From Yuukianura sp. NJ FZ-2021 (Eukaryota), in assembly GCA_046563655.1 (NCBI GenBank), contig CM102287.1, positions 1 to 64,000 on the forward strand: 64,000 nt of DNA. The letters are read 5' to 3'. The stretch's first letter is position 1. The number at the start of each line of letters is the position of its first letter. This document shows positions 15,656 to 36,273 of the stretch, one piece after another. The notes beneath the pieces are model-generated. The model was not told the origin of the DNA, did not search any database, and saw only the letters and a program-made list of their open reading frames with translations. The translations under genes and the position numbers were made by a program.

Positions 15656-16640
15656 GTTTATACCAAAATGACAGTTAGATTTATGCACTTGTTGCATAGT
15701 GGAGTTGGGCTAAAATATAATTCCAGATTATTGTTGAACACCAGTTATTCAGGTGTGCTTTATTGGAAGTGCAGGGTGGTTGTACGACATAAAAAATTAT
15801 TTCCTAAAAATTCTAATCAAGATAACAAATAATGCGGAATGTTTCATTTTGATTTAGACAATGTAATAATGGGATTTCCCCTGAAGTTCCATTGCCCTCT
15901 GAGTCATTGTGATTCATAGTGTCAAAATGAGTACTGGTTGGTATCTGTAGTGAGGACGAGCTTGTCATTTCACCGGCACTTCTCCTTTGTGCTCAAAGAT
16001 GAAGGCTGACAACAAGTGGTTCACCGTGTGTAATAGTCGTTGATGCACTACGACAAAGTGGACCGGTATTAGATGCGTTCCATGAAGATGGTTAGAAGCG
16101 ATATCAAGGCATAAATTCCATTTTTCAGTATGTTTAAAACTTCGTTGTATAGTTCCCACATTAGTTTATACCAAAATGACAGTTAGGTTTATGCACTTGT
16201 TGCATAGTGGAGTTGGGCTAAAATATAATTCCAGATTATTGTTGAACACCAGTTATTCAGTTGTGCTTTATTGGAAGTGCAAGGTGGTAGTATGACATAA
16301 AAAATTATTTCCTAAAAATTCTAATCAAGATAACAAATAATGCGGAATGTTTCATTTTGATTTAGACATTGTAATAATGGGATTTCCCCTGAAGTTCCAT
16401 TGCCGTCTGAGTCATTGTGATTCATAGTGTCAAAATGAGTACTGGTTGGTATCTGTAGTGAGGACGAGCTTGTCATTTCACCGGCACTTCTCCTTTGTGC
16501 TCAAAGATGAAGGCTGACAACAAGTGGTTCACCGTGTGTAATAGTCGTTGATGCACTACGACAAAGTGGACCGGTATTAGATGCGTTCCATGAAGATGGT
16601 TAGAAGCGATAACAAGGCATAAATATCATTTTTCAGTATG

Positions 16641-16897
16641 AGTTAGTTATAAGTGTTTATCAATAGAAAATAGGTCAAGCCCCCCCTCCCCACATCCCCA
16701 GCCCCTGTCCATTCATCCCGGTCATGGGTGACGAAGTGCAACAGAGAAGAAAAAAAAAAAAATAAATAAATAAAAATACATTGTAAATTATTAAATTAAA
16801 TTTATTACTTTTTAAAATTAACCATTTTTAATTGTCTATAATTTATTTAAAAAAAAAAAAATAAAAAAAATATACAATTCCCGAGATTCGAACCCGC
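16641..16897 (+). repeat. Left terminal inverted repeat (near-perfect ~110 bp, degenerate to ~257 bp)
   Basis: Reverse complement of the right end through ...GACGAAGTGCAACAGAGAAGAAAAA; patchy matches continue through TTTTTAATTGTCTAT to CCGAGATTCGAAC. Confidence 0.93.
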
Positions 16898-16956
16898 ATT
16901 TTTTTTTCTCAGGTTTAATTTGAACTGGTGGCTCATACCAATGAACCACATTGGCG
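16870..16956 (-). promoter_or_regulatory. tRNA-like Pol III type-2 promoter element (A box + B box), pointing toward the left end
   Basis: Minus strand reads TGGTTCATTGGTATGAGC ... GCGGGTTCGAATCTCGG followed by T runs; there is no canonical anticodon arm. Confidence 0.45.
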
Positions 16957-17233
16957 TAGCTTACAAATCATAAGAAAAGAATAGCATGACATACAATTAC
17001 TTCATTTACAGCAAAAGTAAAAAAGTACAAGTGATATTCTCTTGATGGCGCTGGGGATGTATTTTTAGTTGCACGGGGATGAAATTCAACTGAGTTTGTT
17101 TCTTCTAAACTTTCGGGGTGAAAAAAATGTTCTGTTTTTAATTCGTCAGCTGAGTTTGTTTCTGTCTAAACTTGACGTGCAACAAAAAGCAACGCAAAAA
17201 TCAAACATTTCCGAGATTTACATTGAAAAAAAA

Positions 17234-18428
17234 ATGGAGGTAAGTCAATCAAATTTGGAACAATTTGGTTCTAAATTTAATTTACTTATTTTATTTATTT
17301 CAGAACGAATTGGACAACGTGGTCGTAGATCCGGATTTTAACCCAGAAGGGGTTGTCGTCGAGGGGGTAATTTTTGTTCTACTATTTTTTTGAAAATTTT
17401 TCTAAAATTCTAATACAAGTTTAAATTAATTTAGCCCCGGTTGTACAACCTCCGCACGACACCTGTACCTTCGCAACCAATTGTCCAATTTCCGATTCCC
17501 TCTCAACGATTTGACAATTGGGGGGAATTAAAGAAACGGAAAGAAACGCTACCACGATTCCACGATATGAACATCACGAACGTGTTCTGGGTACGACGCG
17601 TCGGTGACGGGCCGGCAGCGGAAAATCAAAAACAGCGAGACTACCAATGGCAAGCCTATGTTGGCTTTGGCACAGAAGAAAATGAGTTTGAGCCGTAAGA
17701 AAATTTTGAAATCAACAATTACTTTTGTAGTTATTTTAAATTACCAAAACAACTTTTTTTTCTCTGTATAGTTACCATTGGGTACTTATAACTGAGAAAA
17801 CGCCGCCGCATGTGAAAGCCATGGTGACGACGGTGCGAAAAAGGATGCGAGGAATGATGGACGCAATAAGCTTTTTTCCGCCTCCGGTGAGGCCAGCACG
17901 ACTAGACCAGCTCGGTCTCCGGCCCAGGATTGAGGTAAGCTCTTTTTTTCATGGAAAATAACTTTGATTTAATTTTATTTGTATTAATTTTAGCCTTCAA
18001 GACCAGACTACTACATTTGTTACAAATGTCGCTGCACTTTTCCTGGTCTCGGATATTTAAGGAGGCACAACTGCTATCGGACGGAGGTCAACGGAATTGG
18101 CACTCAAACGACGCAACTAGTGCATAGCATCGCAACTCAGACTCCACCATCTGAGGAATGTCTCCCAGGACCTTCACGAGGAGCAATTCTTCCCGACTTT
18201 TCCACACTAAAATGTCAAAAGTGTGAAATGAAATTTTCAAAAAAGGCAAACTTCAAGCGTCATTATTTTACGATGCACCTTACAATGGGCATCAATAACG
18301 AAATGCACTACAAACACGAGTGCCGCTGTAAATACAAAACAAATCGATACGACAACTATATGCGCCACGTTTTGTCATGTAACATTGTATTAGGTGTTAG
18401 GTGCATGATTGAACTCGACCTCTTTTAG
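17234..18428 (+). CDS. Spliced zinc-finger protein with possible chromo-like N-terminal region and two TQT motifs (5 exons)
   Basis: GT-AG introns 17240-17303, 17367-17434, 17695-17771 and 17935-17993 join one open frame. Fingers: CYKC..HNC, CQKC..F..KANFKRHYFTMH, CRC..YMRHVLSC. Motifs GIGTQT and SIATQT. Confidence 0.75.
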
Positions 18429-18654
18429 CCAATTTTTTGTTAAATAAATTTTGTTGGTTTAAATTTAATTTTGTGCTACTTTATTTTAAAATGCTTTGGC
18501 AACTTTCGGAGTTGCCTTTGAGATGATTCTTAACAAGGTTTGGGACTTTGGGTGGATCACCCAGGATGGGTGGTCTGTTTGGACGTTGGACACACCCTCC
18601 TAATCTTTTCACTCCAAGCATGTGAGAAAAGCTTTCACGAAGATAGAAAGCATC

Positions 18655-18778
18655 AGATGGGGATTTGTGTGAGGAGCAGGCGATCATTTTTGCTCCTCAC
18701 GGCAGCTTATGTAAGAAGGAGAGGAAGCTGAGAGATGGGGATTTGTGTGAGGAGCAGCCGAACATTTTTGCTCCTCAT
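18655..18778. repeat. Two ~46-bp direct repeats, each containing a 10-bp hairpin
   Basis: AGATGGGGATTTGT-GTGAGGAGCA-N12-TGCTCCTCA(C/T) at 18655-18700 and 18733-18778. Confidence 0.85.
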
Positions 18779-19040
18779 GGGGCCTTATGAGAGAAACTTC
18801 TCAGTGCCACTATGTAGTGTGGGTGGTGGTGTTCTGAAAGAGGAGGATTTTTTTGTTTGAAAAAAAAATACTTGAGAAAGATACTCAATGTTCCAAAGAC
18901 GCCAGGCTTTGACAGTGGTAAGCTTTATTTTCAAAAGAGATGGCGCAGAGGAAGGATTTTTTGACAAACGGAGCTACAGTATATTTTAAAAAGAAAAGTA
19001 AAATTGTAGCAAAAAAAAAAGATTTTCACTCTATTCGGAT

Positions 19041-19842
19041 TCAAAGGGAGCTTTCACGGGCGGTAAAAGTTTCCAGTTGAAGCGCAGCTGCACCCCTCTG
19101 GAGTTGGTCACTCAGAGGTCTTGGCCTGCGGCAACGCTTCAATACACGAACGGCCATATATGAACCGATGATCACCAGTAGCCCCACTAGAATTAAAATG
19201 TGAGTCATGAGTACAAATTTGTTTTGAAATGATTACCTAAAACTTACCAATAATCAGAATCAACAAAAGAGTCAAGTCCAAACCTCCCTCTTGAACTGCC
19301 GGCTGCGGGATTACCGTGGTTGTTGGTTCGGTTGTCGGTGAGGTGGGTGGTGTCGTAGGGGCCTCAGTTGTGGTGATGTTCCTAATATTCCTGCAGGCCT
19401 CCCAGTTTGGCGGGTTTACGTTAAAAACGTATCCTCGGGCTGTCCCCTCCAGTCCACAAAACGTTTTACGTCGCCCCTCGTTGAACTCGAAAAATGAGCA
19501 CGCCTTAAGGACACACTCCACGCATTTCCACAATGCATTACACTTTGCTAAAAATGAATTATAAATTAAAATATGCAAATTGAAATTTTACAAATTAAAA
19601 ATCTTTTACTTACACATAATTGCAACTTCTTTGACTTTAGAGTTCTTGGAGTACGAAATACAGACTGATGAGCAATCTCATGCAAAATTTATTATTAGAG
19701 CTAAAATGAGTTCTCTTAAGTTGATGAACTAGTAATTGATCTGGATTTGAAACATCTCATACGATCAAATAGCAAGGATAATAAAAACTCCAGCGTCTAG
19801 ACAATTCCTTTCAGATGAGTTTATTCGAAGTTACCAAACCAT
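19041..19842 (-). CDS. Membrane protein 1: Cys-rich (PSI-like) domain, Thr/Pro mucin-like stalk, TM helix, tail ending ESSL; 5' end uncertain
   Basis: Introns 19548-19613 and 19187-19247 give ...KCNALWKCVECVLKACSF...TTTEAPTTPPTSPTTEPTTT...LTLLLILIIVGLLVIIGSYMAV-RVLKRCRR...TARESSL*. A signal-peptide-like exon (TLEFLLSLLF) lies near 19763-19796. Confidence 0.65.
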
Positions 19843-19845
19843 TTG

Positions 19846-22800
19846 TCATCCGCCTAACTTATTTTTCAAATCATAGTCAATAATAGATTCGATTCGCTTG
19901 TCACCAAATGGAAGGGAAATTGTGTTGGACACAAAAAATCTTGACGCGTTAATGCTTGATGTTAGGGATGCTCGGCTACTTGTGATCATCAGCATCTGGT
20001 CATCCAAAATTTTCACCTGAGAAACTTTGACTTTTTTCAGGGCTTCTCCATGCTCCACGACACGTTTGAAATCTGCATGCCTAAGTTCCTTGGCCTGTTT
20101 TTTTGGAATTCCACCGGCTTTCAGAATGTCGGATTCTCCAAACGCAGAGTCAATTTCCATTGAATATTGAGAACAGGAAGTAGAGTAAAATTCTTTGATC
20201 CCTTCAGCTTGAATCTTCAAGAGACCCGGGATTCCTGCCCGAGAAGCATCATAGAGTTCGGACGTCGGCTGTAGATTGGAAAAGTCGAAGCGATTCGAAA
20301 GTCGTTTCAGTCCAGCAACGTATTCGGCTCTGCTACAGTGGATCTCGGCCACAATACTGTCTGTATGAGTCATCACATGATGGCACCTGTCTCCAAACTC
20401 ACGTTTCAATCCGTCATAATAGTGTGAGTACAGCATAATTTTTGCATTTGAAAGTATAGCGAGTCCAATCATGCGCAGATTGTAATCTGTGATTTCCCCC
20501 TTGGAAAAGTCAAATAGCGCCGTATCTTCGTCCAAAATCTCGAACGACTTGAAAGTTGCCTTGGCTAGTTCTGCTTTCGCTTCTACCGAAGATCGGATGG
20601 CTTTTGACCGCATGTAATCTGAATTGTTTTTTAACATTTGTCCATAGAGCGAGTTGTTTAAAAGCTTCCGAAGTTGCTTTTGGAGGGGAAACTTTGCTTG
20701 ATTTCTTGCAATGACATTACTAGCAGCAAAATTTGCGAAAATTGGAGACTCCCTAAATCGAACTGCTGAATAGTACTTGGTAGGCATGGCGCCATGATCA
20801 ATCATGAACTTGAGGTATTTCCCATAGTAGACTTGTCGTTGTTTTTTGTAGAGGGTCAGCAACACTCGTTCCTGTTCAATTTTTGTTTTTTCTCTGAAAC
20901 TTTCTTGTTGGAATGGAGATAGCTCTTGAGTAGAAACCTTAAGTCGCTGTTGTGGGAAAGGAAAGTCTGAGAGAAAGTTTTTCACTTCCTCACTTTGATA
21001 TTCAAGGTCGACTTCAAAGAGGTAACCCCAACCGTCATCAAAATCTGGTTTGTTGAAATCAAATTTTATAATCTCCTCCGCGGTGAGTTTTTTGTAGCCT
21101 CCGCACGGTAGGTTACCCAAGAAGCACTTACTGTAGCACGAGTTAATGTCAGCATAAAAAATTATTTTTTGCGGAAGGTTATGGTCATAGTTGGAGAGCT
21201 GTTCATTGTTGGCTATAGACTTTAACTTTGTGACTTGAATGACAGGCCCATAGATTCCTTTCGTGATGAGTTTTGAAATTTCTTCATCCGTGACGGCTTG
21301 AATTTCACATTTCTCCATTAGGAACGCGGCTTCCCTTGAAAATGAAGAAATGCTCCAAAAAGAAGCCAAATCCAAATGAAACTCTTTCCAATATTCGTTT
21401 CGAATCGCTTGGAAAACGTCTGCGGTAAGAGCAGTGACACTATTTAGCTTGTGGCGGACTATGTTTTCCAGTGAAAGTTGTTTCCATGAATCGGGAACGT
21501 GGAATTCACTTGAACATTCTAGACTCTTGTAGGCAACTGATTTGTTTTCGAAAAAATCATCAACGGAAGAAAACTCAGGAAAAATCTCGTCTACTGCACT
21601 GTGTGTAGGGTCAGGAGAAAGTTGATTACCGAAAATTTGCTGGAAAATTGGAAATCCAATTCCGGACATCTTTAACTCTTCCACAAGTTCAGCGAGCGGC
21701 GAGTCTGGACGAAAATTTTGAAAGTCTATAAATTTGAGTCCAAAGTGAAGGTCATAGTTTTGCTTGCAAATAGTTTTTCTCAAGTCCAAACCAATTGTGT
21801 TTCCTTCTTTTCTTCGAATTGGGGTAGCAATTCCGTGTTCATCTTTTAGGCATTTTAGCAGAAGATTAAACTCATTCTTCTCACAAAATGCAATCGCTGT
21901 GATACGGTTCTTTGGTTTTATTTCCAAGTTGCAGTTTGTGCAACAGGTCTGCATCTTCTCCCCTGTGAAATGATCATGGTGATAAGCTCTCAGCACTAAA
22001 TCGTGGTTAAATTGCTTTCCACAAATTTCACAGTTTGTTGCTTTTATAAAAAGCCCTTCCTGTTCCTCAGTCATAGGGAGCATCTTGTTTGTGAATTTAA
22101 TTTCGTCGAGCTTCATTTTCGCCATTTCCATTGCAGTTTTAAAAAAAATGTCCACACAATCTTTTCCAATGTAAGAGTGCCGGTCTATGTGTCCCGTTTC
22201 GCATACACTCAGTAGACTGAAGCCAACTGGAATTTTTTGAGTAACACTGATACATTCTTGTCCTATGGTCATCGGAGTTTGTACAGAGACGTAGAAGAAC
22301 TTGTAGAAAAAAATGTAAGGAGCTTTCAGGAGGGCATCAAACTTTCGAAATTTCACAATATCATTCCTAGGCACTTTTACTTTTACAGAGTTTTCACCGC
22401 AAGTATGGTTTACGGAAGACCAAGTCCTAGAATCAAAACGTTTTTGACAAACAGGACAAAATTGATGCCGGAAATGATTATGTTTTCCGAGGAGTGCCGA
22501 AATGTCCCGAATGCAAACAAAGTGATGTTCTTCGCGTTCCGGATGCTTGATTAGTAGGAGATTGACATGATTCGCTCTTTCAGTTTGTGGTGCCCTCCAT
22601 AGAACAATTTCTGGCCCCTGATTTCCGTACACGGTGATGCTAAGGTCTGGGAATTTCTCTTCGACCAAGTCAATGTCCAAAAGAGAAACGTCCGGGTGAG
22701 GGAGAAAGCTCAAATCCATTCTCTCCAAGAAGGCTTCATAACTTGCTGTTTTCTCCAAAATTGCTCTCTCAACTTTAGACTTTTGATGATCTTTGAGCCC

Positions 22801-23711
22801 AAGACAGTGACGCTTCATTCTTCCCAGCTCCAAAATTTCATCTTCATATAGTGCACATAGCACGCTCAATTGGAAGCAGTTGGAATTGGTATTTATCGAC
22901 AAAAGTCCACGTCTGCGAGCCAATTCCTTTGGAATGGGAATGTAACCCCGCCCCCGAACAACTGGATTCCATTGACCGACACCAATGTGGAGAGAACGTA
23001 GCCGCAGAATCTGCCAATTGCTTCCGTTTTCTAGGTATAAGTTGAGGGCGTTGATGATGTATACACAAGAGTTTGTTACCACCCTTGAAATGAAATCGGG
23101 ATGAGAGAGAGGCATGAAGGGAGCTCCGATGGCGTCTCCGAGGTGAATGACATTGTGTGTGACCTCAATCATGTCAGCAATCAAAGTAAAGTTGACTTTG
23201 ACTCCACTGTACTGCCCGATCACTGATTTCAGTAACTTTCTAATAGGAAAGTCGAGGTTTTCAAAAACAGAAAGTACTTGACATTCGGTGGGTGGTTCAA
23301 CGGGTGCAGAAAATAACTTCAAAGTCCCCTTAAGAGCATGGCGGATTTCTTTGAAAGGACGGATATCCACCATAGCTAGGTCATCGGTTGGTCTACTACC
23401 CATGCCTCTCTGAGGACAGATTGGACGGTGAAGAGGAGCCTCGTCAAAGTACCCTCCACAAGAATTACAGCTATGTACCTGCATCAAAAGTGGAATTTTC
23501 ACATCTTTCCTCATGCTTGTGCTAAGTGTAACGTCTTACAGTTTCCACGTGGATGGCCATGGCCTTGTAGGTCGTGCATTTGAAAGTGCAAAGTAACGTA
23601 GGGCTCTGATATCCGCAACTAAACTGCAAATAAAAATTTTTGTGAAACAACAATAATAAGACGGCTTAGAATTTTTTTTACCTCGGCTGCCCGTTTATTC
23701 AGAAAACTCAT
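19846..23711 (-). CDS. pPolB: Protein-primed family B DNA polymerase with N-terminal zinc finger, TP/vOTU-like region and endonuclease VII-like insert
   Basis: 1222-aa ORF with YADINSCY, KLLNNSLYG and THTDS; GSNW...YIPIP...NSNCF...HF N-terminal block; CEIC...HHDHFTGE...CTNCN. Probable 5' exons via introns 23624-23681 and 23479-23539 complete a C2H2 finger (C..C..HVET|VH). Confidence 0.93.
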
Positions 23712-23757
23712 TTTATTAAATTATTAAACAATTTTTTCCAATTAGCTAGCTTCAGAC

Positions 23758-24429
23758 TCAGACTTCGGACTGACGGGGGGATCGACGAAGGGCGACGTTA
23801 AATACACTGCCGTATGTCCCGCGCGATTGGCTACCATGACATTGACCTCCCAAGCTCCACCCCAAAACGTTTGCCACGACAGCAGCAAAGGTCATGCATG
23901 ACAAGGCTGTGGATGAACAACACGATTAATTGGGGACCCATCTAAAAGGAATACGACGTCTTACCCAGAATAGTCCGTAAAATCGGAAGTTGGGAGGGTG
24001 CTTCAAATTTTTGTTGCTTTTTGCAGCCGGTCATTGCTCTCAATAGGTTTGAAATATCTTTCAGTGCCGTTCCGTTGCTGATGTTATCAGCAAACAAAGT
24101 TCCATAAACGATTCCATCCGTGTCTTGCTGATGCGAATCGCACTTGGCCGTGACATTTGTGCTGCCCATTATGAGGGTTCCTGGGAGGTTCCGCGTCATG
24201 TCATTTGTGCAAAAAAAGTTTTGAACCGAATTGAAATGCCATCCTTTGATGAACACATGACCGCCTGAGATGCAACTCCTGCAGCGTTCTTGGAGACTTT
24301 TGTCTTCTCCAGTTTTCAAAAAGAAAGGAATCACTCACCTTCTAAAATGAAGGAAATAGTAGCTTACTTACCTTGACACGATGACGCGGTGATTAGAAAG
24401 CACAACAGGACAAGATTCGAGAGAGCCAT
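23758..24429 (-). CDS. Membrane protein 2: signal peptide, Cys-containing glycosylated ectodomain, TM helix, tail ending QSEV
   Basis: MALSNLVLLCFLITASSCQ | intron ~24308-24371 | ORF body (CRSC; sequons NVT, NIS, NGT) | intron 23907-23964 | ILRTILALSCMTFAAVVANVLGWSL...RRSPRQSEV*. Confidence 0.68.
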
Positions 24430-24522
24430 TACACTACTTGTCGACTCGAATAGAGTAAAATGAATACTGAAGCGTTTGTCAGGCAGTTGCTGAATTTTTA
24501 TGTTTTATTTACATTTGAAAAA

Positions 24523-25082
24523 TTAGTTTTGCCAATCACATAAAGAATAGCATGTCTGAGATGACCCTGAGTGACCCCTTTTCGTACAGATGCCTAAACT
24601 ACTATAAAAATCAAGTACAATTTTTTCGTTTTTGTTTAAATTTTTAGGACTAAATATACGTAAAGAACTACACAAATCTTTTCCGCTGCTCAACTCTTGA
24701 AAGACTTTTAAGCAGAACATGCCGCACGTTGCACTGTCATCCTTTTGTAGTTTTTTAGTGTTCCATTCCGAGATTGTAGTGCATGGGCCGTAAGGAAGAG
24801 ATAGGTTGTAATCGCTAGGCAATTTCCCAAAACTGTCAAAAAAAACCAACCGGCCTTGCTCCAAGTGCGCCCAGAGAACCCAATGGATTCCTAAATTAAA
24901 ACAAAAAATAAATCTCTTGCGTTTCCATATTTTTTTTACCTCAAGCATTTACCTGGAGAAGAAGTTAAGCCGGTATTTTGTATACAACAGAATGGAGGGC
25001 GTGGGTTTAGAAGGCTAATTCCATCATTAGAACTAACAAAAGTTCGAATTTTCGGGTCAGAGCACTCTTTTATACACGCCAT
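24523..25082 (-). CDS. Adenain-like (adenovirus C5/Ulp1-fold) maturation cysteine protease, 2 exons
   Basis: IQNT...G|IHWV...FFDSFG...LQ..DSATCGMFC gives the H-D-Q-C catalytic set; intron 24891-24952. Confidence 0.9.
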
Positions 25083-25110
25083 CGCTTCCTCCAGTTCCGC
25101 CCGTTCATCC

Positions 25111-26412
25111 TCAAGTTTTAAGAACTTGCGCGTTTCTGTTTTTGTCAATTGTTAATACGTTTTGAAAAGTTCCCAGCACAATCAACTCGACTGGCTCGTT
25201 CAGGGCTTCACCAAAGACTGCAGTTACACGGACGGGTCCTTCGCGAGCAGGAAGGAGGTCATTGTTGGATACAGCAGCTTCAGAAAGTTGGAAAAGGTAG
25301 ACGGCGTTGCCAAGTTTGAAATTCTCGCGGGAAATTCCGTTTCCAAAAGAACCGAGTGTATCAAATAGAGCCACGAATGGTTCCATGTACAGGTTTGCAG
25401 CGTAATTACAGACAAGTTCTCTGTAAAATGGAACAAATTCTTCGGTTCTGACGCTGATTGAAGTTATGCCAAAGTCGGCAAAATTCTGTGCGCTATTCTT
25501 GTAGTTTCCTCGAAACGCTTTTGATTTAACCAAGGCAATTGCAACAATCGTAGGCATCCTGCGAAGAAAAAGTCGATCCGAGGTGAAGCTGACAGTTCCG
25601 GAAGCGATTGTGTTTCTTTCAATTTCAATTTCTCGGTAACTGTAGATTGCTTTTTTTCCATGGTTGAATAGTTGCTGATGGTTAGAGTAGATTCGAGGGC
25701 TAATTGTATGTGCCTTGAGATGAAAGACGGCATCTTCAATGGAATACGTATACTTTGTGTCGGTGGGCGTGTCCAAGCAGAAAGGGGCTGAGTTTTTAGT
25801 CAGTGTAAGTTCAATTTTTAGTCCCGAAGGAATCCATCGTTGGAGTTCACACAATGAACATGAAATTTTTCCAAACAAATCAAAGGTCTTTGACCCGGCA
25901 CACATTGCTTTTCGTTTCGTATATCCAGTGTTTGTTGCGTCAAAGACATCCTGTTTGGAATCTGGGTAGTAGGCAATTGATGACAGGAGGCTCGCTTTGA
26001 GTTCTTGACTGTAGCCCAGGAGATGCGACAGAATTCCTCTGTAACTGTAACTTTGTGGGTACTCACTCATTTGGACGCCACCTACCGTGACCGTGCAGGA
26101 GTCAAAGATTGTGTAGAACATCATGTTGCTAATAGCAACGTCGGCAGTATCCGGAAGCGTTTCTCCACTTGCAGTGAGAACTTTACATTTTAGGTATAGG
26201 TATGAAGATGAGAAATCCAAGTAAACGTTTGGCGGAAATTGAAACTGCCCAATGTTGAATGTGATTTGAGGATTTTCTTTTACAGTATTCACAGGAATAA
26301 TCTTGATGAACTCTGTTTGCTGCACACTAATGTCAGTCGGGGGAACTGAAAATAGATCGAGTTGGGAAACGTAGTTGGGCTTTGTACCCGGAAGCGTGTT
26401 TACTGAAGCCAT
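25111..26412 (-). CDS. Major capsid protein (double jelly-roll, Polinton PY-type), 433 aa, intronless
   Basis: N-terminal SQLDLFSVPPTDISV, YLDFSSSYLYLKCKV, YSYRG and ...IVLGTFQNVLTIDKNR patterns typical of Polinton MCP; size and position next to the protease. Confidence 0.88.
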   Translation of the reverse strand: MASVNTLPGTKPNYVSQLDLFSVPPTDISVQQTEFIKIIPVNTVKENPQITFNIGQFQFPPNVYLDFSSSYLYLKCKVLTASGETLPDTADVAISNMMFYTIFDSCTVTVGGVQMSEYPQSYSYRGILSHLLGYSQELKASLLSSIAYYPDSKQDVFDATNTGYTKRKAMCAGSKTFDLFGKISCSLCELQRWIPSGLKIELTLTKNSAPFCLDTPTDTKYTYSIEDAVFHLKAHTISPRIYSNHQQLFNHGKKAIYSYREIEIERNTIASGTVSFTSDRLFLRRMPTIVAIALVKSKAFRGNYKNSAQNFADFGITSISVRTEEFVPFYRELVCNYAANLYMEPFVALFDTLGSFGNGISRENFKLGNAVYLFQLSEAAVSNNDLLPAREGPVRVTAVFGEALNEPVELIVLGTFQNVLTIDKNRNAQVLKT

Positions 26413-26473
26413 CTTGAGACTGACTACCGACTAACGCAGGACAGAAGACTGAGGAATCTTGTAAATGGTTCTT

Positions 26474-26830
26474 CTATTTAAACGATTTTGGCTTAGCTTG
26501 TTTTGTTGGTCCACAGCCGATCTTTTTCTTTTTAGGAGTTTTCTTTTTAGAAGCAGAAGTTTCCACCGCGGAGACTTTCTTTTGTGGTGATTTTCCTTTT
26601 CTTTTAGCAGCTCCCGTCTTTTTGCGACCTTTGGATTTTTTTCTTCCTTCTCCTGTCATTTCTGAAGCACCGTTCTTTTTACCCTTTTTAGCCTTTTTCA
26701 CACTCTGAAATGGAATTGAATTTGGTAAAACTACCGGGGTCAATGCCCCATACCCAACCTGACGAGTCTTTTCTCCGTCCATTCTTTTTAAAAGCTTACA
26801 ACTTTCACCTTCACACACAACTTCAAGCAT
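26474..26830 (-). CDS. Lys-rich basic protein, putative DNA-condensing core protein
   Basis: Highly basic; xxGxG motifs QVGYG, MTGEG, KIGCG resemble adenain cleavage sites; lies between minor and major capsid genes. Confidence 0.6.
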   Translation of the reverse strand: MLEVVCEGESCKLLKRMDGEKTRQVGYGALTPVVLPNSIPFQSVKKAKKGKKNGASEMTGEGRKKSKGRKKTGAAKRKGKSPQKKVSAVETSASKKKTPKKKKIGCGPTKQAKPKSFK

Positions 26831-26896
26831 GTGGCCTGTGGATCCGACGAAAGTCAAATGACGACTAACTAATGGAGCAGATTATTTATATTGGTT

Positions 26897-27997
26897 TCAC
26901 AAAGTTTTATTTTGAAAATGAAGTACGACCGCAGAATATAAATCGTTAGCTTGAGGGATTGGTTCCATATTTTCAAAAACGAGATCGATTCCAATTTCAC
27001 TAATTTCCCTCCGGTCCATGTCAACAGGAAAGTATAGCAATGGCCGTGGGGTTTCGTGTACAATTCTAACAACTTCTTCTTTTTTCACATCTCGCCTTGG
27101 TAAAATGCTCATATGCCGAACTGCCTTGGATTTGAATTCCTGTGGTTTAACAGCATCGCAGAGCACAATCACATTGTTGTGATGTATATCCAGGTCAATG
27201 TTGGCGATTGTCGGGGATGAAGTGTTGCTGTAGCTGAACCAACATGGAGTTTTGAGGCCAAAAGTTTTTTCTAGAAATTCCGAGAGACGAACACTATAGC
27301 CTCTTCCGGAGACACCGTTGACGCTGAGCTTGCTTTCGTCGTAGGAAAATGTAATTCCCAACTGTTTCAAAGCAACGTTGATTTCACTAACTATGCCTTC
27401 GACCGTCTTGTCTTTGGGTTCATTGACCTTTACGGTAGAACTGACTTCACGAAAAACAGTAAACTTTAGCGGCTCTGAAATGTCAATTGCGTCCAACGCT
27501 GCTTGGCTTGGAGACGACGGGGCATCGGTTTCACCTTGGCCAAACACATTTTTTGTAAATCCGAGAGCACGCGCATAGACTTCTGGAATCTTCACGTCGT
27601 AGCCAGTGTCATTGTTGCGAAATATTAAAAAGTCCTTTCCTTCTTCTACTTCCAATAGGAATGTCAGCTTGTTGTTGAATATTGCAAAATTCGTATTGCA
27701 TTTGTTCATTGTTTCAATATAACTTTCACCTTCGGCTCGAAACACTTCCATGCTCGATTCAAAGCGCTGAACCACGGAAACGACATTGTCGTCGGGTTCA
27801 TGGCCAAAAATCGTATACTTTCCAGTGTCTGGCGTTGCGGGGTACCACAAATTACACACTGCAACTTCTAGCGGGAGATTTTTGTGCAAAGGAATATTGT
27901 CCAAAAGCTTATTTCGAAAAGAACTTGTATTATTAGATGGGAAGAATGAGGGAAATGAAGTAGAACCTAGAGTCACGAAGCGCGAAAACGGGTACAT
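26897..27997 (-). CDS. Minor capsid (penton-like) protein, 366 aa, intronless
   Basis: FVTLGS..FPSNNTSSFRNKL..IPL..EVAVCNLWYP N-terminus and VLCDAVKPQ..YFPV..ISEIGIDL..VVLHF C-terminus match the Polinton minor capsid pattern. Confidence 0.82.
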   Translation of the reverse strand: MYPFSRFVTLGSTSFPSFFPSNNTSSFRNKLLDNIPLHKNLPLEVAVCNLWYPATPDTGKYTIFGHEPDDNVVSVVQRFESSMEVFRAEGESYIETMNKCNTNFAIFNNKLTFLLEVEEGKDFLIFRNNDTGYDVKIPEVYARALGFTKNVFGQGETDAPSSPSQAALDAIDISEPLKFTVFREVSSTVKVNEPKDKTVEGIVSEINVALKQLGITFSYDESKLSVNGVSGRGYSVRLSEFLEKTFGLKTPCWFSYSNTSSPTIANIDLDIHHNNVIVLCDAVKPQEFKSKAVRHMSILPRRDVKKEEVVRIVHETPRPLLYFPVDMDRREISEIGIDLVFENMEPIPQANDLYSAVVLHFQNKTL

Positions 27998-27998
27998 T

Positions 27999-29155
27999 TT
28001 ATGCGGTCACTGGGGTCAGATCTTCGTTTAAGAAACTCCTAAAAAAGAATTGGATGTGGCTTTGTCAACTGGCAAAATCCGTCTAAAATTATTACCTTTA
28101 ATCTCCTCCTTTTTTAGCGTCTCAAGATAGTAAAAGGGAGGCACGGCGCTGATTGCCTTTCTAATCCTATAAAAAAAAAGAAACGCTTGGCATACATTCC
28201 AAAACAGGGCTAATATGCTTCTTTACCTAAAGACTTCCGTAGAGTACGATTGTGACGTTGAAGCTTTTTCAAAAGTTAGCCGCTTTCTAGCGACCCTCAC
28301 AAGCTGACCCACCTGAAGAAAAAGACTGTTTTAATGAGACAAAGTGAATGTTTAACTGTTACCTTGAATTTTGGCTTTTCTGGTTTGGAATTTATTAGTT
28401 TGTCGTAGACGTTTATAAAAACTGTAGCTTTGTTTTTGGGGTCAATAGCCTCCGTGGGAGTCATCTTCAGGGTTGAATGCACCGTTTTATTGTAATTTGA
28501 AACAATATCCGGCCATAGAGTTTTCATTGAAGCCTTTGGATTGGCAAATTGAGCCCGGGTCAAGTTTCTTCTGAACGTTTGAATTACACGTTCTACCTGT
28601 GAAACTTTTCTCGCAGTTCTCGGAGAATAGCTGTGAATGTCATTGGCTTCCAAATATTTCAAAAGGCTTTTATTCTTGAATTCTTTTCCAAAATCGGAAG
28701 CCAAAAAATGCGGGAGATGCTGAGAGAAAAAATGATAAAGTGTAAATGCATTCGAAGAGAGAAAAGGAGACATTTACCCCAGCTTTCTTGAAGACTTTCT
28801 TTATTGCCTCCAAAACTACTCGTGCTGTCTTGTTGACACAGAACTCTGTCCACACAAAGCGGCTAAACAAGTCCATGCAGATGAGAATGAAGCCAATCTT
28901 TTCTTTTTTCGCAGACTTTTTGTCCAACTGCAAAAGGTCAACTCCGAACGTCATATAAGGAAAAAACGTTAATACTGGCCTGGTCCTTGGCTTTCTTTGC
29001 GGCCTGTGCAGAGAATATGCAGGAACTCCGGACAAAGCTTGCTTGACCTTCTCTTTGTCTAAAAAGCCTGATGACTTTAAGAATGACGGAAAACCAGAAA
29101 AGCTTCCAACTGCTTTTTTATTTAAATAGGCTGACTTTATTTGTCTTTCAGACAT
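27999..29155 (-). CDS. int: Retroviral-type (c-integrase) DDE integrase, spliced; last junction uncertain
   Basis: YSLHRP, GVDLL, CMDLFSRF, ASDFGKEF, VERVIQT, YNKTVHSTLKMTP, KFK|VGQLVRV. Introns 28720-28777, 28313-28362, 28167-28226 and probably 28039-28095. Confidence 0.92.
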
Positions 29156-29286
29156 GCTAAGAACCTACAAAAGAAATTACACAAGACAGTGTATGACGGC
29201 GACTGCCGTCTGAGTATGACTTTTTACCAAATTTATTTAAAAAACGACCGAATTTTCGAGAATTATTTAAGCTTAAGACTCAGGGG

Positions 29287-29750
29287 TCAGTTGGTATCCA
29301 TAGCGTCTTTGTCGTTCCAGTCCATTGACTTTACCAAGAAGCACGGATTTTCAAAACACTGTGATCCGGTTCGTCCACAGCCCAAGATACACGGTTCGGA
29401 GAGTACCAAGTGACACTTCATGTCCTTCATGAACTCTTCCAAGTCTCCTTCTCGAACATAGGCCGAATGATCCGCTGCGAGTTCATTTATTGTCTTGTCT
29501 TTGTTAATTTCTGCGTCGTAGACGTAACAGTCACGGTGACCCCTACGGTTCCAGCAGTTATGTTTTAGCACAGCACTTCCAAACTGACGTATGATAGGAT
29601 CTACTTCGGCAAGTTCATCCAAAAGTTGAGCCAATGGCTTTTCCTGTCTGTTTGGGCAATCTAGATACAAAAAGAAATTAGGTTCAAAGGTCAAAAACTG
29701 ACAATTTCTAAAATTTTACCCGCCAACGGTGGAGAATCTTTTGTCGGCAT
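29287..29750 (-). CDS. Hypothetical Cys/His-containing protein (~135 aa, 2 exons)
   Basis: MPTKDSPPLA|DCPNRQ... joined by a GT-AG intron ~29661-29719; TATAAA upstream near 29805-29810. Confidence 0.55.
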
Positions 29751-30051
29751 TTTGAAAATGATGGCGCTTACTACGGAATGATGGCTTTTCCAAACTCCTG
29801 TCGCTTTATATACCCTATCGAACTGAGTGGAAACGTTTTGAAAAAATGTTGACTAGAAATTTCCAAAATTTTCAGTCCATTGAAAATTCCGCTCTGTTGA
29901 ACTCAAAAGGCCCTACGGCATACTAAATGCGATTACTCATGCACACAAAAAAAAAGCCAAGGAAATATATTCTTGTGCACTTTCCTCCTTTGTATTCAGT
30001 CGCACTTTCCTCATCCCCTCCTCAAGTCACAAGCAAAATATTCAGAAAGCA

Positions 30052-30930
30052 ATGGAAAACACAGAGCCAGCTAACAACCAGTTTCCTAGCCATGAAGAAT
30101 TGCCAGAAGAAAGAGATTGGACAGAAGTATTCAAAGTGAAAATCAGTCATCCGGACACTGTGGATTGCACTTTAATTACGACAGGCCCTAAGATTTTCAA
30201 AGTACTACGCATTGAACAGCACGGCACGGCAACCACTTTGGATTTCAAAGTGATACCAAAACTCATCGGAAAGCTTTTTCAACTTTATCTTCAGAACGGT
30301 GGGCGAGCGAGCGAGCTGCCGTATGTAACACTTTATCATGAGAGAGGTTCAACTTGCCTTATAATTCGACACAAAGACTCCAAGGAGGTTAGAAGCTGGC
30401 CGCAGAATTCTGAAAACGGTCGTAAAACTGATCCAGACCCAATCCGCTGCCCACAAGGAATGTATCCCGCGCCAACTATCGTGTATCAGACGTCTCAAAT
30501 GGACGGGTTTTGGCCGAGGCAGGCTGAATCTCGTGATAGCAGTACCGATTGGGCACAAGTAGACAAATTGCGCATCAGTCAGCCGGACGCTTGGGATTGT
30601 TCTCTAATTACGGAAGATCTTAAGGTCTCGAAGGTCATCCGCATCGAACAGCACGGCGCGGCAGCCACCGTGGATTTCCAAATGATTCCGAGCCTAATCG
30701 GCAAATTGTTTCAACTCTTTCTTGGAAGCGGCGGGAGAGTAACAGAACTGCCGAGAGTAAAACTTTATCACCAGAAAGGCACTACATACCTCGTGATTCG
30801 GGACAATGACTCTGTGGACAATTGGAACTGGCCAACTGACTTGGAAACGGGTCCTAGGATCACGCCTCTAGGAAAATTAATCGAGTATCAGACATATCGA
30901 ATCGAAGGAGACGAGGTATTCGTGGCATGA
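30052..30930 (+). CDS. Hypothetical 292-aa protein made of two diverged ~100-aa repeats
   Basis: DWTEVFKVKISHPD..RIEQHG..LIGKLFQL..GGR..ELP..LYH vs DWAQVDKLRISQPD..RIEQHG..LIGKLFQL..GGR..ELP..LYH; synonymous divergence between copies supports coding. Confidence 0.85.
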   Translation: MENTEPANNQFPSHEELPEERDWTEVFKVKISHPDTVDCTLITTGPKIFKVLRIEQHGTATTLDFKVIPKLIGKLFQLYLQNGGRASELPYVTLYHERGSTCLIIRHKDSKEVRSWPQNSENGRKTDPDPIRCPQGMYPAPTIVYQTSQMDGFWPRQAESRDSSTDWAQVDKLRISQPDAWDCSLITEDLKVSKVIRIEQHGAAATVDFQMIPSLIGKLFQLFLGSGGRVTELPRVKLYHQKGTTYLVIRDNDSVDNWNWPTDLETGPRITPLGKLIEYQTYRIEGDEVFVA

Positions 30931-31149
30931 TTGGGCAAAAACTGAGCCACAGAGACGCCTCACTAGCGTTAGAAACGTATATTGAATAGCATTACTCCAC
31001 TAGCATTTGCATAAAAGAATTTTGTCTTTGTGAAATTTATTTGAATTCTGGTGAAAAATTTGTATTATTTAAAATTTGATAAAAAACTTTCAATTTTTCC
31101 GAAATCCTTTTTCCAAGCCTTGTTCAGTTTACAGAACACACCAAAAGTT

Positions 31150-31585
31150 GCTCACAAAAAAAAAAGAAAAGAAAGAAATCCATTCATTGCCATGCTCCGT
31201 TGAACTCGAAAATTTGTTACCAAATTGCAAGAAAAAGAAGTGCTCAAGAATCAAAACTCAAAATTTAACAATTTAAATAAATTTAAACTTCATTTCTTTT
31301 GTCTTAGAATTCTTTTTAAAAGGTTAAAAAGTTTTCAAAAAAAAACAACACATTTTTTTTAAAATTCAATTTAAAAAAAAAAGAAAAGAAAGAAATCCAT
31401 TCATTGTCATGCTCCGTTGAACTCAAAAATTTGTTACCAAATTACAAGAAAAAGAAGTGCTCAATAATCAAAACTCAAAAGTTAATAATTTAACTAAATT
31501 TAAATTTCATTTCTTTTGGCTTAGATTTTTTTTTAAAATGTCAAAAATTTTTCAAAGAAAAAACTGATTTTTTTGTTAAAAATTC
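31150..31585. repeat. Two diverged ~218-bp AT-rich direct repeats between convergent genes
   Basis: AAGAAAAGAAAGAAATCCATTCATTG(C/T)CATGCTCCGTTGAACTC...AATCAAAACTCAAAA at ~31163 and ~31381. Confidence 0.85.
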
Positions 31586-31789
31586 AACTAATCTTCCCTA
31601 GCCTGAATTTTTTAAAAACAAAGCAAAATGCAGTTGGTTCCAGTTCGCTGCACTCCACATACTACTCTGCCAAATTGTAAATACCAAAAAAATGCAAAAG
31701 AAATAAATAAATAAAAAAGAAAGAAACACAAGACATTTCAAAATCCATTTTTTATTTCTTTGTCTTTTTTTTAGCCTAACCGGAAGAAG

Positions 31790-32198
31790 TTAACGACGTA
31801 TCCTTTGTCGTAGATCCTCGTCACTTGCATTGTATATAACTGAAAAGACAAAAAAAATTACTATTTTAAATTGAGTTCGGTTTAAATAATTAATCAATTG
31901 TTGGCTTACTCTTCTCGATCAGCTTCATCTGCGCAAACCGGTGCATCTCGCGGTAGTGCAGAAATTCCTCCATTGCACCCGGCTCCTCTGGCTTCAAATA
32001 GTAGTTTGGAATCTCGCGGCGTCTCGCCCAGAAGTGGTGCCAAGCGGCACGTAAACAATCGTAGCGGAAAAAGGCCTCCAATGTTAGGCGCCGACGCCAG
32101 TTCCCGCCAGTCCTCTGGTCATCACAGATGACCTCCTGAGGGCACGAGCAGCCGTCCCAATCGTCGTGTTCACAAGGCCGCGACACAATACCTCCCAT
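31790..32198 (-). CDS. Small hypothetical protein with N-myristoylation-like start (MGGIVS), probably 2 exons
   Basis: ORF body 31890-32198; donor GTAAGC near 31909 and acceptor TTTCAG near 31840 give ...IEKIIYNASDEDLRQRIRR*; TATATAAA upstream near 32262-32269. Confidence 0.6.
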
Positions 32199-32352
32199 GG
32201 TAATGAAATGCAGTTTAAGGAGAAGAAAGTAATCTGACAAAAGACGGCCAATTCTCCAGAGTTTATATACTACCAGAAAATCATCTCAACTCCAATTAGA
32301 ACTGAGAAAAACACTAGCTCACAGCTAGAGATATTTATTCGAGCATAAATTC

Positions 32353-33271
32353 TCATAAATCTTCAGGGTCAACCTTAGCAACAATGTTTTGCATTGTTTT
32401 TACAAAACCGTCAATATCTCCCCGACAAAACGTTAACTTCGGCCCAAAATAGCCGTCAAACTTCGAGTTGTCGCTCGGGGAATTGAGATAGAAAAAATAT
32501 CTGTCCCTGCGGACGTTGATGAAGCGCATTCTAAAGCGCATAGTTTCGCTATACCAAGTATCGTCATGAGTCCAGAATGAGAGCTCTTTGGGCTCAATCA
32601 GGGTTCCCGGCTCGTACTTGAATAAGGGAGCTCCTGCCTTGACAGACTCGTCAATCTCGTCCAAGGTAGATTTTATTTGTTCCAGGATGACACCAACTTC
32701 TCGAAACAAGATTCCAAGGATCGTTGGGCTTGCGTTCGAGTTGAGCTTCTGGATGTAAATCTTCATGGCTGCAAAAGAAAAAAAATTTTGTGAAAAATTA
32801 CAATTGAAGCTTATTCATATTTTAGGTCAAACGTACTCTGAGAATACGGGTCAAATCCGAGCCGAGCGTAGAAAGTAGTTGATGTTCCGAACTTCTCCAC
32901 AAGTCCAGATTCAGAAAAGAATGCTTGGGCATTCTTCGGTCCAAGCTCCAGTTGCTTTGCTTTCGTGACGTAGCTCATGGGAATTCCGGAGAAAGCCTCC
33001 GTAAAAACAAACGGAGTCTGCGGCGGTCTTCCTTCCACGACGTCTTGACCCGGGTTAGCTACACCGGTCAACAAGTCAATCGCCCTCCGACTTCTTACAA
33101 GTGAAGTGGCTTCATCAACGTTATCAAAGTCCAAACGTCTTTTAAACGCTCCGACCTTTTGCGTTGGGGCTTCTGAAATTATTTTTAAAATGATTAAATT
33201 TTAAAAAAAATAGAAGAAAAAGTATTTTTAAAAAAACTGCAGTTCAAAAATTGTTACTCACCGCTTCCCAT
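32353..33271 (-). CDS. Hypothetical spliced protein with KRRLDF motif; possible PC4/PUR-like ssDNA-binding repeats
   Basis: MGS|EAPTQKVGAFKRRLDF...FDPYSQ|TMKIYIQ... joins ORFs 33254-33487, 32811-33134 and 32353-32766 by two GT-AG introns. The start may be at 33487. The fold guess is weak. Confidence 0.6.
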
Positions 33272-33858
33272 TGTCGAATTTCTTTGATATTGGCCCTTTT
33301 GAAATTGTAAAAGTTGAGTACTGATGACGGGATCACAAATACTGTCCCTTTTAAGGGAAAATTTCAACCCGATTGACCCCTGAGTTTCCCGAAGCAACCA
33401 ATCCGATGTCGTTTCAATTTCCCCCAGTTCCTCCCCCGACGCTTCTCCGCTCCGCTGACGATGAAATTTTCGACTCCGTTGACCCATGACTTTGGTGAAA
33501 GCAAACCGTCAACGTCTTAGCGTCACCGGAGATATGCTTCAATGCCGTTCTGGTGCAGGTCAGTTGTGGCCTGCACCGGATGTTCTAGAAGTTGAACTTT
33601 TGTTTGGACCCAAGCCGTTCCGGGTGACCGATTTAGGCGCGCGTCACGGCTCGCTAATTCCCGGCCACTGTCCTCGACGTTGTTCTAGGCTACAGTTCAA
33701 GAACTCCAGCCAAAACTGATTTCCAGTCTGATAAGCTCCGTTCATCGTCTTTTGCCCCTGTTTGACCTAGGGGGCAGTCCAACGGAAAAAAAAACATCGA
33801 TATAAAACACGGACTGAAAATCGTTTTTAGGGCCGAAAAGTTTGTTAAACCCCTCAGT

Positions 33859-34263: not shown

Positions 34264-34265
34264 AG

Positions 34266-36176: not shown

Positions 36177-36273
36177 ATAGTTTTATGGTAGCATTGTGAA
36201 TTTTGGCTTTACTAGTAAAAGTATTCATAGATTTCCATTCAACTGTATTCAGTTTGCAAGAATTTTTAACAAA

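What the first reader, a model, noticed from the sequence alone, without database searches (positions are those of the whole stretch)
16870..16956. tRNA-like Pol III elements inside the virus (VA-RNA-like transcripts or chromatin insulators?)
Seen: GTGGTTCA(T/G)TGGTATGAGC ... GGGTTC(G/A)AATCTCG followed by a T run occurs here (minus strand) and at 36280-36357 (plus strand) with unrelated middles. A lone B box, GAGTTCGAATCTCGG, sits at 38424-38438 and is conserved between otherwise diverged inner TIRs. Known: A/B boxes bind TFIIIC, adenovirus VA RNAs are Pol III products, and B boxes can act as heterochromatin barriers. Inference: small non-coding RNAs, or barriers shielding the element from flanking satellite heterochromatin.
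Basis: partly seen in the sequence, partly recalled or inferred. Interest (0 to 1): 0.7.

Follow-up and report, generated by a model that had tools for sequence, protein, structure and literature searches.

The report
tRNA-like Pol III cassettes in a Maverick
An intact-looking virus-like Maverick transposon lying in satellite DNA carries two short tRNA-derived units that look like RNA polymerase III genes but cannot be working tRNAs, and whether they are used remains untested.

Summary
The 19-nt A-box/D-arm core occurs only at 16931-16949(-) and 36280-36298(+), 18 of 19 identical. Each core is followed 44 or 54 nt later by a B box/T-arm and, within 13 nt of that, a T8-T9 run. This composite occurs twice in the element; 0 of 1000 shuffles gave two.

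The units are not tRNAs. ARAGORN finds none, Rfam gives 12.8 bits against a cut-off of 29 for copy 2 and nothing for copy 1, and neither folds as a cloverleaf.

The host is a 22,048-bp Maverick/Polinton (16641-38688) with TIRs and an AGTATG target duplication, inserted in a 508-bp satellite. The "lone" B box at 38424 is simply the right-TIR partner of copy 1's B box, and TIR homology ends exactly there.

Only the two promoter cores are shared between the copies; flanks and middles are unrelated.

Best reading (about 0.5): lineage-native, tRNA-derived type-2 Pol III cassettes giving roughly 75-95-nt non-tRNA RNAs, or at least TFIIIC sites. Expression, TFIIIC binding, conservation in sister copies and identity to a host repeat could not be tested, because no host genome, RNA run or close relative was available.

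The parts
16641..38688 (.). Maverick/Polinton-like element, 22,048 bp, inserted in a 508-bp satellite
   Evidence: TIRs. Protein-primed PolB: all 30 atlas hits fall in the DNA_pol_B_2 set. Double-jelly-roll capsid protein. The uninterrupted target site occurs 77 times in the flanking monomers.
16635..16640 (+). Left copy of the 6-bp target-site duplication AGTATG
38689..38694 (+). Right copy of the target-site duplication AGTATG
16641..16897 (+). Left TIR; its innermost 17 nt are the B box/T-arm of copy 1
   Evidence: 228 of 280 aligned columns identical to the right arm; the outer ~120 nt score 19-20 of 20 per window.
38422..38688 (+). Right TIR; starts with the mirrored B box (38424-38438) and T9 (38444-38452), with no recognisable A-box half inside it
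   Evidence: Similarity inward of the B box is not significant: 272 of 1000 shuffles score at least as well.
16861..16959 (-). tRNA-like unit 1, pointing out of the element: A core 16931-16949, 35-nt middle, B box 16885-16895, T8 at 16863-16870
   Evidence: Not a tRNA.
36273..36357 (+). tRNA-like unit 2, pointing toward the right end: A core 36280-36298, 25-nt middle, B box 36324-36334, T9 at 36349-36357
   Evidence: Rfam tRNA model scores 12.8 bits against a cut-off of 29. No cloverleaf.
19846..23514 (-). [quoted passage not shown]
25111..26412 (-). Major capsid protein (double jelly-roll type), 433 aa
   Evidence: animal DJR-like clusters, including the F54H12.2 cluster; 6 homologues at 22-31% identity.
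28297..29155 (-). Integrase-like gene in two exons separated by a GT..AG intron of about 58 nt (about 28721-28778)
   Evidence: The integrase identity is read by eye; Pfam gave no rve hit.
34209..35861 (+). PIF1-like helicase gene interrupted by introns of about 60 nt, ending about 420 nt upstream of unit 2
   Evidence: PF05970, E = 4e-12 on one exon; Walker A and GDLAQLSPV read across the introns.

Best explanation
The two complete units are tRNA-derived type-2 RNA polymerase III cassettes that belong to this Maverick lineage. TFIIIC would bind the B box and A box, TFIIIB and Pol III would start a few bases upstream of the A core, and transcription would stop in the T8-T9 run. That would give RNAs of roughly 75-95 nt that keep a D-arm and a T-arm but have no acceptor or anticodon stem, so they cannot serve in translation. 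Unit 1 straddles the inner edge of the left TIR and points outward. The right TIR carries only its B box plus T run, which would make it a TFIIIC site without a full gene. Shown: the anatomy, that it is not chance, that the units are not tRNAs, that only the promoter cores are shared, and that the host element looks intact. Inferred: TFIIIC binding, transcription, and any role of the RNA.
For: The A core and extended B box are unique to these sites in 64 kb. The composite occurs twice, against 0 of 1000 shuffles with two. Spacing from A-box start to B-box start is 44 nt (unit 2, the canonical tRNA distance) and 54 nt (unit 1). A T8-T9 run begins within 13 nt of the T-arm at all three sites, while T8+ runs occur only 39 times on both strands of the 22-kb element. 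Between the units only the A core (18 of 19) and B core (13 of 15) are alike. Upstream, middle and downstream parts are at shuffle level: 116, 383 and 759 of 1000 shuffles score at least as well. That is the pattern expected if the internal promoter, not the RNA body, is what is kept. The element looks young and intact: an unbroken 1222-aa PolB, an intact MCP, apparent gene breaks that are short introns, and outer TIRs at 19-20 of 20 per window. So the missing cloverleaf is unlikely to be decay since insertion. The T-stem pairs in all three copies despite two one-sided changes (read). Viral type-2 Pol III genes are known: passages of PMC8223928 describe adenovirus as having a canonical type-2 promoter and the MHV68 TMERs as tRNA-like.
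Against: There is no expression evidence of any kind. There is no conservation evidence from sister elements. There are only two full units in one element. Neither predicted RNA folds better than shuffles (z = -1.6 and +0.8), so nothing points to a structured functional RNA. Two different ancestral tRNAs that shared D- and T-arm sequence would also give 'conserved boxes, unrelated middles' without any selection. The right arm lacks an A box. One contig form from the sample behind runs X1 and X2 joins 16684 to 16900, so at least one relative may lack the B-box segment (the letters between are not known). In chromatin, many sequences with good A and B boxes are silent.
Confidence: 0.5

Rival explanations
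1. The units are inert relics. The lineage once captured one or two host tRNA genes with their terminators, as protist polinton-like viruses and virophages do, and these have degenerated. What remains looks like a promoter because D- and T-arms are the most stereotyped parts of any tRNA.
For: Real tRNA genes are reported in PLVs and virophages (passages of PMC12220804) and flagged in MELD viruses (figure legend in PMC8502044). Unit 2 has exact tRNA dimensions and a weak tRNA-model hit of 12.8 bits. The acceptor positions pair at only 4 of 7 in each unit (read). There is no fold signal.
Against: Uniform decay strong enough to erase the acceptor and anticodon stems should also have eroded an 18-of-19 A core and a 13-of-15 B core. 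The element shows almost no decay elsewhere. A T8-T9 run is kept at all three sites.
Confidence: 0.27
2. The sites work at the DNA level as TFIIIC-bound boundary or architectural elements. A B box sits in each TIR, facing outward, and would shield the element from the flanking satellite heterochromatin. Any RNA is a by-product.
For: B box plus T run is mirrored in both TIRs about 250 nt from each end. The element sits inside a long 508-bp satellite array. The right arm is B-box-only, like extra-TFIIIC sites. [quoted passage not shown]
Against: The symmetry follows automatically from being inside the TIR. There is one B box per end, against five per repeat in the yeast case. Unit 2 is internal and complete with its terminator, which a boundary does not need. 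The chromatin state is unknown. A possible relative lacks the segment.
Confidence: 0.12
3. The units are copies or fragments of a dispersed host tRNA-derived repeat (a SINE head or tRNA pseudogene family) that landed in the element, and have nothing to do with the Maverick.
For: tRNA-related heads with A and B boxes and a degenerate anticodon region are typical of SINEs (general knowledge). The host genome could not be searched.
Against: There is no tRNA-unrelated body or A-rich tail; a T8-T9 run follows the head at once. No flanking duplications are evident. One unit is built into the TIR and mirrored at the other end. The flanks of the two units are unrelated. There are no matches in the viral or metagenome collections, nor in print.
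Confidence: 0.08
4. The units are genuine but unusual tRNA genes, for example with an intron or a non-canonical structure.
For: They keep the universally conserved D-loop and T-loop positions.
Against: ARAGORN finds 0 at default and intron-tolerant settings; relaxed settings give dozens of junk calls across the element. Rfam gives 12.8 bits against 29 for unit 2 and nothing for unit 1. The anticodon stem pairs at 2 of 5 (unit 2) and 3 of 5 (unit 1) when read by eye. MFE folds are not cloverleaves.
Confidence: 0.02

Closest known systems
Adenovirus VA RNA genes
   Same: Pol III genes with internal A and B boxes and a T-run terminator, carried by a virus with a protein-primed PolB and TIRs. Adenovirus is described as having a canonical type-2 promoter in passages of PMC8223928. 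Mavericks and adenoviruses are grouped together among the bamfordviruses in the abstract of PMC10328495, seen only in the listing.
   Different: VA RNAs are described as adopting stable hairpin structures (abstract of PMC2777419, seen in the listing). Here the predicted RNAs are 75-95 nt with no fold signal. There was no Rfam hit to any viral RNA family at E <= 1. VA genes are not in the terminal repeats (recalled).
MHV68 TMERs (viral tRNA-like genes)
   Same: Virus-borne, non-decoding tRNA-like Pol III units with A and B boxes (passages of PMC8223928).
   Different: [quoted passage not shown] Here there is no cloverleaf and the terminator follows at once. Two strong hairpins do exist, but they lie 1.4-1.8 kb downstream, beyond the T9.
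tRNA genes of polinton-like viruses, virophages and MELD viruses
   Same: tRNA-type sequences carried by relatives of Mavericks (PMC12220804 passages; PMC8502044 figure legend).
   Different: Those are called as real tRNAs by ARAGORN or Rfam and are interpreted as codon compensation. These units fail both tools. The host here is an animal-type Maverick.
Extra-TFIIIC (ETC) sites and B-box boundary repeats (S. pombe IR-L/IR-R)
   Same: B boxes carried in a pair of inverted repeats at the edges of a roughly 20-kb domain (passages of PMC7474672; abstract of PMC3395662, seen in the listing).
   Different: There are five B boxes per repeat in yeast and one here. In yeast they bracket a heterochromatic domain; here they would bracket a unique element inside a satellite. 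Binding is untested.
tRNA-derived SINE heads
   Same: A tRNA-related region of about 75 nt with working-looking A and B boxes and a degenerate anticodon region (general knowledge).
   Different: There is no body, no tail and no evident target duplications, and a terminator follows directly after the head. One unit is part of the TIR.

Membership tests
tRNA gene | Cloverleaf with acceptor, D, anticodon and T stems, recognised by a tRNA finder | tested here: not met
   ARAGORN finds 0 genes in the window and in the element, with or without introns. MFE folds are not cloverleaves.
tRNA gene | Score at or above the Rfam RF00005 gathering threshold (29 bits) | tested here: not met
   Unit 2 scores 12.8 bits, E = 9.7. 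Unit 1 has no hit at E <= 10. There are no hits at gathering level.
Type-2 (tRNA-type) Pol III transcription unit | Internal A box and B box near consensus (consensus recalled: TRGYNNANNGG and GGTTCRANNC) | tested here: met
   Both units match both patterns exactly. The right-TIR site matches only the looser extended B-box pattern (its box begins GAGTTC rather than GGTTC) and has no A box.
Type-2 (tRNA-type) Pol III transcription unit | A-to-B spacing in the tRNA range, and a run of at least four T shortly downstream | tested here: met
   Spacing is 44 and 54 nt start to start. A T8 or T9 run begins within 13 nt of the T-arm. The composite occurs twice, against 0 of 1000 shuffles with two.
Type-2 (tRNA-type) Pol III transcription unit | Occupied by TFIIIC and Pol III, and transcribed | not testable with these tools
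   No RNA run is listed as holding the element, and no ChIP data are reachable.
Adenovirus VA RNA | Structured RNA related to the VA family | tested here: not met
   The predicted RNAs are 75-95 nt with z = -1.6 and +0.8. No viral RNA family is hit in the element at E <= 1.
MHV68 TMER-type gene | tRNA-like cloverleaf followed by pre-miRNA hairpins before the terminator | tested here: not met
   There is no cloverleaf. T9 starts 11 nt after the T-arm of unit 2. The nearest hairpins begin at 37760.
tRNA-derived SINE | tRNA-related head, then an unrelated body and an A-rich or repeat tail, flanked by target duplications | tested here: not met
   The head is followed directly by the T run, and the flanks of the two units are unrelated.
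tRNA-derived SINE | Many dispersed copies in the host genome outside the Maverick | not testable with these tools
   No host genome is held. The contig tables are cut and do not show these sites.
ETC / TFIIIC boundary element | B box bound by TFIIIC without Pol III, with barrier activity | not testable with these tools
   Only the sequence feature is shown: a B-box-only site in the right TIR.
Maverick/Polinton (host element) | Protein-primed PolB, double-jelly-roll capsid protein, TIRs and a 6-bp target duplication | tested here: met
   PolB: all 30 atlas hits are in the DNA_pol_B_2 set. MCP: animal DJR-like clusters. TIRs. AGTATG is duplicated around a site that is single in 77 neighbouring monomers.
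Maverick/Polinton (host element) | Retroviral-type (rve) integrase and adenovirus-like cysteine protease | tested here: inconclusive
   The integrase is recognised only by eye across an intron; Pfam gives no rve hit. The protease is a sub-threshold Peptidase_C48 hit of 18.3 bits against a cut-off of 20.7.

The most novel reading that the evidence does not exclude
Animal Mavericks of this lineage carry their own Pol III genes, a tRNA-derived counterpart of adenoviral VA RNAs, together with a TFIIIC site built into each terminal repeat. The small RNAs would act on host defence, and the TFIIIC sites would keep the provirus open even inside satellite heterochromatin. The boxes would be conserved across family copies in both host organisms while everything between them drifts.
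Probability: 0.15. Interest if true: 0.75.

Novelty: new variant of a known kind. Interest (0 to 1): 0.45.

Why it matters
Pol III-transcribed non-coding RNAs are a recurring device of nuclear DNA viruses (adenovirus VA, EBV EBERs, MHV68 TMERs). I found no report of them in Mavericks/Polintons, the endogenous relatives of adenoviruses. Two main animal-Maverick papers contain no occurrence of tRNA, Pol III, SINE, non-coding or small RNA, and a full-text search for Mavericks together with tRNA-like returned only an unrelated 2011 review holding both terms, which I did not open. If these cassettes are transcribed and conserved, they would be the first non-coding genes assigned to an animal Maverick. 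They would also give a handle on how such elements deal with host silencing, and a possible evolutionary bridge to VA-type genes. If they are relics, they still record tRNA-gene capture by an animal Maverick, so far described for protist relatives.

Tried and rejected
- Host genome: none is held.
- Earlier scan notes by place, sequence and words: nothing.
- Sister units by DNA pattern: 0 in viral contigs for the two-core pattern, the A core alone and the TIR terminus. 0 in metagenome contigs for a loosened two-core pattern.
- Relatives by protein: none in viral contigs for MCP or PolB. The 7-sequence MCP alignment was too diverged to seed a scan. A 3-sequence alignment gave one 4.8-kb metagenome contig, L001. 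L001 does not reach an element end and has no tRNA, B box or Rfam hit, so it says nothing either way.
- Expression: no RNA holder is listed.
- Contigs of 4 DNA runs laid on 16641-36640: they show many diverged relatives in both coded organisms, but the tables are cut. Cover and variants at the two units are not shown, and contig depth cannot rank parts. So they settle neither the conservation question nor the SINE question.
- ARAGORN at relaxed thresholds: dozens of calls all over the element, judged junk.
- Remnant A-box half in the right arm: not significant, 272 of 1000 shuffles.
- Guide or antisense role of the middles: only low-complexity matches of 13 nt or less.
- PDB sequence searches for four element proteins: 0 hits.
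- Text search for the four core motifs in papers: 0 papers.
- Chance as an explanation: rejected.

Full report
**Observation**

The sequence is as described. On the minus strand at 16861-16959, a 19-nt core (16931-16949) is followed by a 35-nt middle, a B box (16885-16895; extended form 16881-16897) and a T8 run (16863-16870) that continues into more T. On the plus strand, the same core with one change sits at 36280-36298. It is followed by a 25-nt middle, a B box (36324-36334) and T9 (36349-36357). A third B box lies at 38424-38438, with T9 at 38444-38452.

In the whole 64-kb window, on both strands, the core (up to two mismatches allowed) matches only those two sites, and the extended B box matches only those three. 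A generic composite (recalled A-box consensus, 20-50 nt, recalled B-box consensus, T4 within 30 nt) occurs twice in the element. Of 1000 dinucleotide-preserving shuffles, 2 had one match and none had two. This is not chance.

**Setting**

The window is a 508-bp satellite interrupted by a 22,048-bp element at 16641-38688.

- The element has terminal inverted repeats, 16641-16897 against 38422-38688, with 228 of 280 aligned columns identical.
- It is flanked by a duplicated AGTATG. The uninterrupted target sequence occurs 77 times in the neighbouring monomers on both sides, always on the plus strand. This is therefore a clean insertion with a 6-bp target duplication.
- It encodes an unbroken 1222-aa polymerase whose C-terminal part has all 30 atlas neighbours in the protein-primed DNA_pol_B_2 set.
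- It encodes a 433-aa capsid protein whose atlas neighbours are animal double-jelly-roll clusters. That protein has only six sequence homologues, at 22-31% identity.
- It has a sub-threshold Ulp1-type protease hit, an integrase-like gene and a PIF1-like helicase.
- The apparent breaks in the integrase and helicase are short GT(GC)..AG introns across which the reading frames and motifs continue.

It is therefore an animal-type Maverick/Polinton that looks young and intact.

**What the units are not**

ARAGORN finds no tRNA in the window or the element, with or without introns. Only at relaxed thresholds does it call anything, and then it makes dozens of calls all over the element. Rfam has no hit at gathering level. 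In permissive mode, unit 2 reaches 12.8 bits on the tRNA model against a cut-off of 29, and unit 1 gets nothing. Minimum-energy folds are not cloverleaves and are no better than shuffles (z = -1.6 and +0.8). Read by eye against the tRNA numbering, the D and T arms pair, but the acceptor pairs at 4 of 7 in both units and the anticodon stem at 3 of 5 and 2 of 5. They are not working tRNAs.

**What is conserved**

Between the two units only the A core (18 of 19) and the B core (13 of 15) are alike. The 140 nt upstream, the middles and the 100 nt downstream align no better than shuffles: 116, 383 and 759 of 1000 shuffles score at least as well. Spacing from A-box start to B-box start is 44 nt in unit 2, the canonical tRNA distance, and 54 nt in unit 1. 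Each B box is followed within 13 nt by a T8-T9 run, although such runs occur only 39 times on both strands of the 22-kb element.

**Relation to the TIRs**

TIR homology runs from the termini inward and stops exactly at the inner edge of the B box, at 16897 and 38422. The 'lone' B box is thus the mirror of unit 1's B box. It is not an island: adjacent 20-column windows score 14-18 of 20, and the indel-ridden stretch lies further out. Inward of the B box the two arms are unrelated (272 of 1000 shuffles), so the right arm has a B box and terminator but no A-box half. Both TIR copies point outward, and unit 2 points toward the right end.

**Comparative and expression evidence**

This could not be obtained.

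- No host genome is held.
- Pattern scans of the viral and metagenome collections found nothing.
- Protein-seeded scans gave only one partial 4.8-kb contig with no relevant feature.
- Five DNA runs from two coded organisms and two studies hold parts of the element, and none is on record as RNA.
- Laying contigs of four of those runs on 16641-36640 shows many relatives at all levels of divergence in both organisms: 682 pieces in X1, split 181/176/167/158 by likeness class, and 104 pieces in X4. The tables are cut, though, and do not show the two sites.
- Three contig joints are worth recording: 16684->16900 (in runs X1 and X2, which come from one sample), 36361->17192, and 18830->16667. Two of them break at the edges of the units. 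The first suggests a relative without the B-box segment, although the letters between are unknown.

**Mechanism**

The best-supported reading is that these are tRNA-derived type-2 Pol III cassettes native to the lineage. TFIIIC would recognise the B and A boxes, Pol III would start a few bases upstream of the A core, and it would terminate in the T run. That would give non-decoding RNAs of about 75-95 nt. The right-TIR copy would be a TFIIIC site only.

The argument rests on four points: near-consensus boxes, canonical spacing and terminators, conservation restricted to the promoter cores, and the intactness of the element. The last point makes decay since insertion an unlikely cause of the missing stems. 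Binding, transcription and any role of the RNA are inferences. I put this reading at about 0.5.

The main rival (about 0.27) is that the units are inert relics of captured tRNA genes. Two different tRNAs that shared D- and T-arm sequence would mimic the conservation pattern. The other rivals are:

- a DNA-level boundary role for the TIR B boxes (about 0.12);
- a host repeat (about 0.08), which the lack of a body, tail and shared flanks, and the TIR location, argue against;
- a real tRNA (about 0.02).

**Comparison with known systems**

- The promoter type is that of adenovirus VA genes and MHV68 TMERs (passages of PMC8223928). The units fail the defining features of both: they are neither a structured VA-like RNA nor a cloverleaf followed by miRNA hairpins.
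- Real tRNA genes are reported in protist polinton-like viruses and virophages (passages of PMC12220804) and flagged in MELD viruses (figure legend of PMC8502044).
- B boxes in paired inverted repeats at the edges of a chromatin domain are known from fission yeast (passages of PMC7474672).
- In two main animal-Maverick papers the words tRNA, Pol III, SINE, non-coding and small RNA do not occur.
- Searches for Maverick or Polinton together with tRNA or Pol III, and for Mavericks together with tRNA-like, returned no paper describing such units.
- The core motifs occur in no searchable paper.

**Verdict**

It is most likely a new variant of a known kind: virus-borne tRNA-like Pol III units, here in an animal Maverick and partly built into its TIR. 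Its activity and conservation are untested, so interest is moderate (0.45). The bold reading, VA-like small RNAs plus TFIIIC boundaries that keep the provirus active within a satellite, is not excluded (about 0.15) and would be of high interest.

Noticed in passing
window 37760-37892 and 38128-38250: Two very stable long hairpins lie between unit 2 and the right TIR: MFE -73 and -46 kcal/mol, z = -12.2 and -8.7, with 0 of 200 shuffles folding as well. They weakly hit plant miRNA-precursor models far below threshold (43 bits against a cut-off of 100). The first is followed by T runs. They could be small-RNA precursors, foldback insertions or cruciform sites. No counterpart was seen at the left end.
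   Followed up: partly
window, e.g. 338-349 and 39082-39093, versus 36276-36287: Many satellite monomers contain an exact 12-nt match to the 5' edge of unit 2, running into the A core; others match 9-10 nt. By my own rough estimate, a match this long against a single 508-nt monomer would arise by chance about 1 time in 100. No B box follows it in the satellite.
   Followed up: no
window 28721-28778; about 34517-34576; about 34916-34968: The element's genes contain short spliceosomal introns of about 55-60 nt. One appears to use a GC..AG boundary, inside the helicase Walker A motif. The apparently split integrase and helicase are therefore probably intact.
   Followed up: partly
window 30052-30930 (+): The 292-aa ORF is an internal duplication of a module of about 140 aa with no Pfam or PDB match.
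   Followed up: no
window 31156-31564: A 217-bp unit is repeated 1.9 times (92% matches) in the region between the minus-strand and plus-strand gene blocks.
   Followed up: no
window 14400-15123, and several places between 40 and 50 kb: Some satellite repeats are spaced about 723 nt apart instead of 508 nt, that is, about 215 nt longer. These variants are denser on the right flank, which also has slightly higher GC.
   Followed up: no
window 16641-36640, contigs of coded runs: Contig joints suggest rearranged or internally deleted family members: 18830->16667 with 17 extra letters in three runs of one sample, 36361->17192 with 18 extra letters, and 16684->16900. Two of these breakpoints fall at the edges of the tRNA-like units. 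The strand of the joints was not shown.
   Followed up: partly
window 21920-22045 (PolB residues 490-531): The N-terminal half of the 1222-aa polymerase ORF has a sub-threshold Endonuclease VII-like, cysteine-rich stretch: 19.1 bits against a cut-off of 23.6.
   Followed up: no
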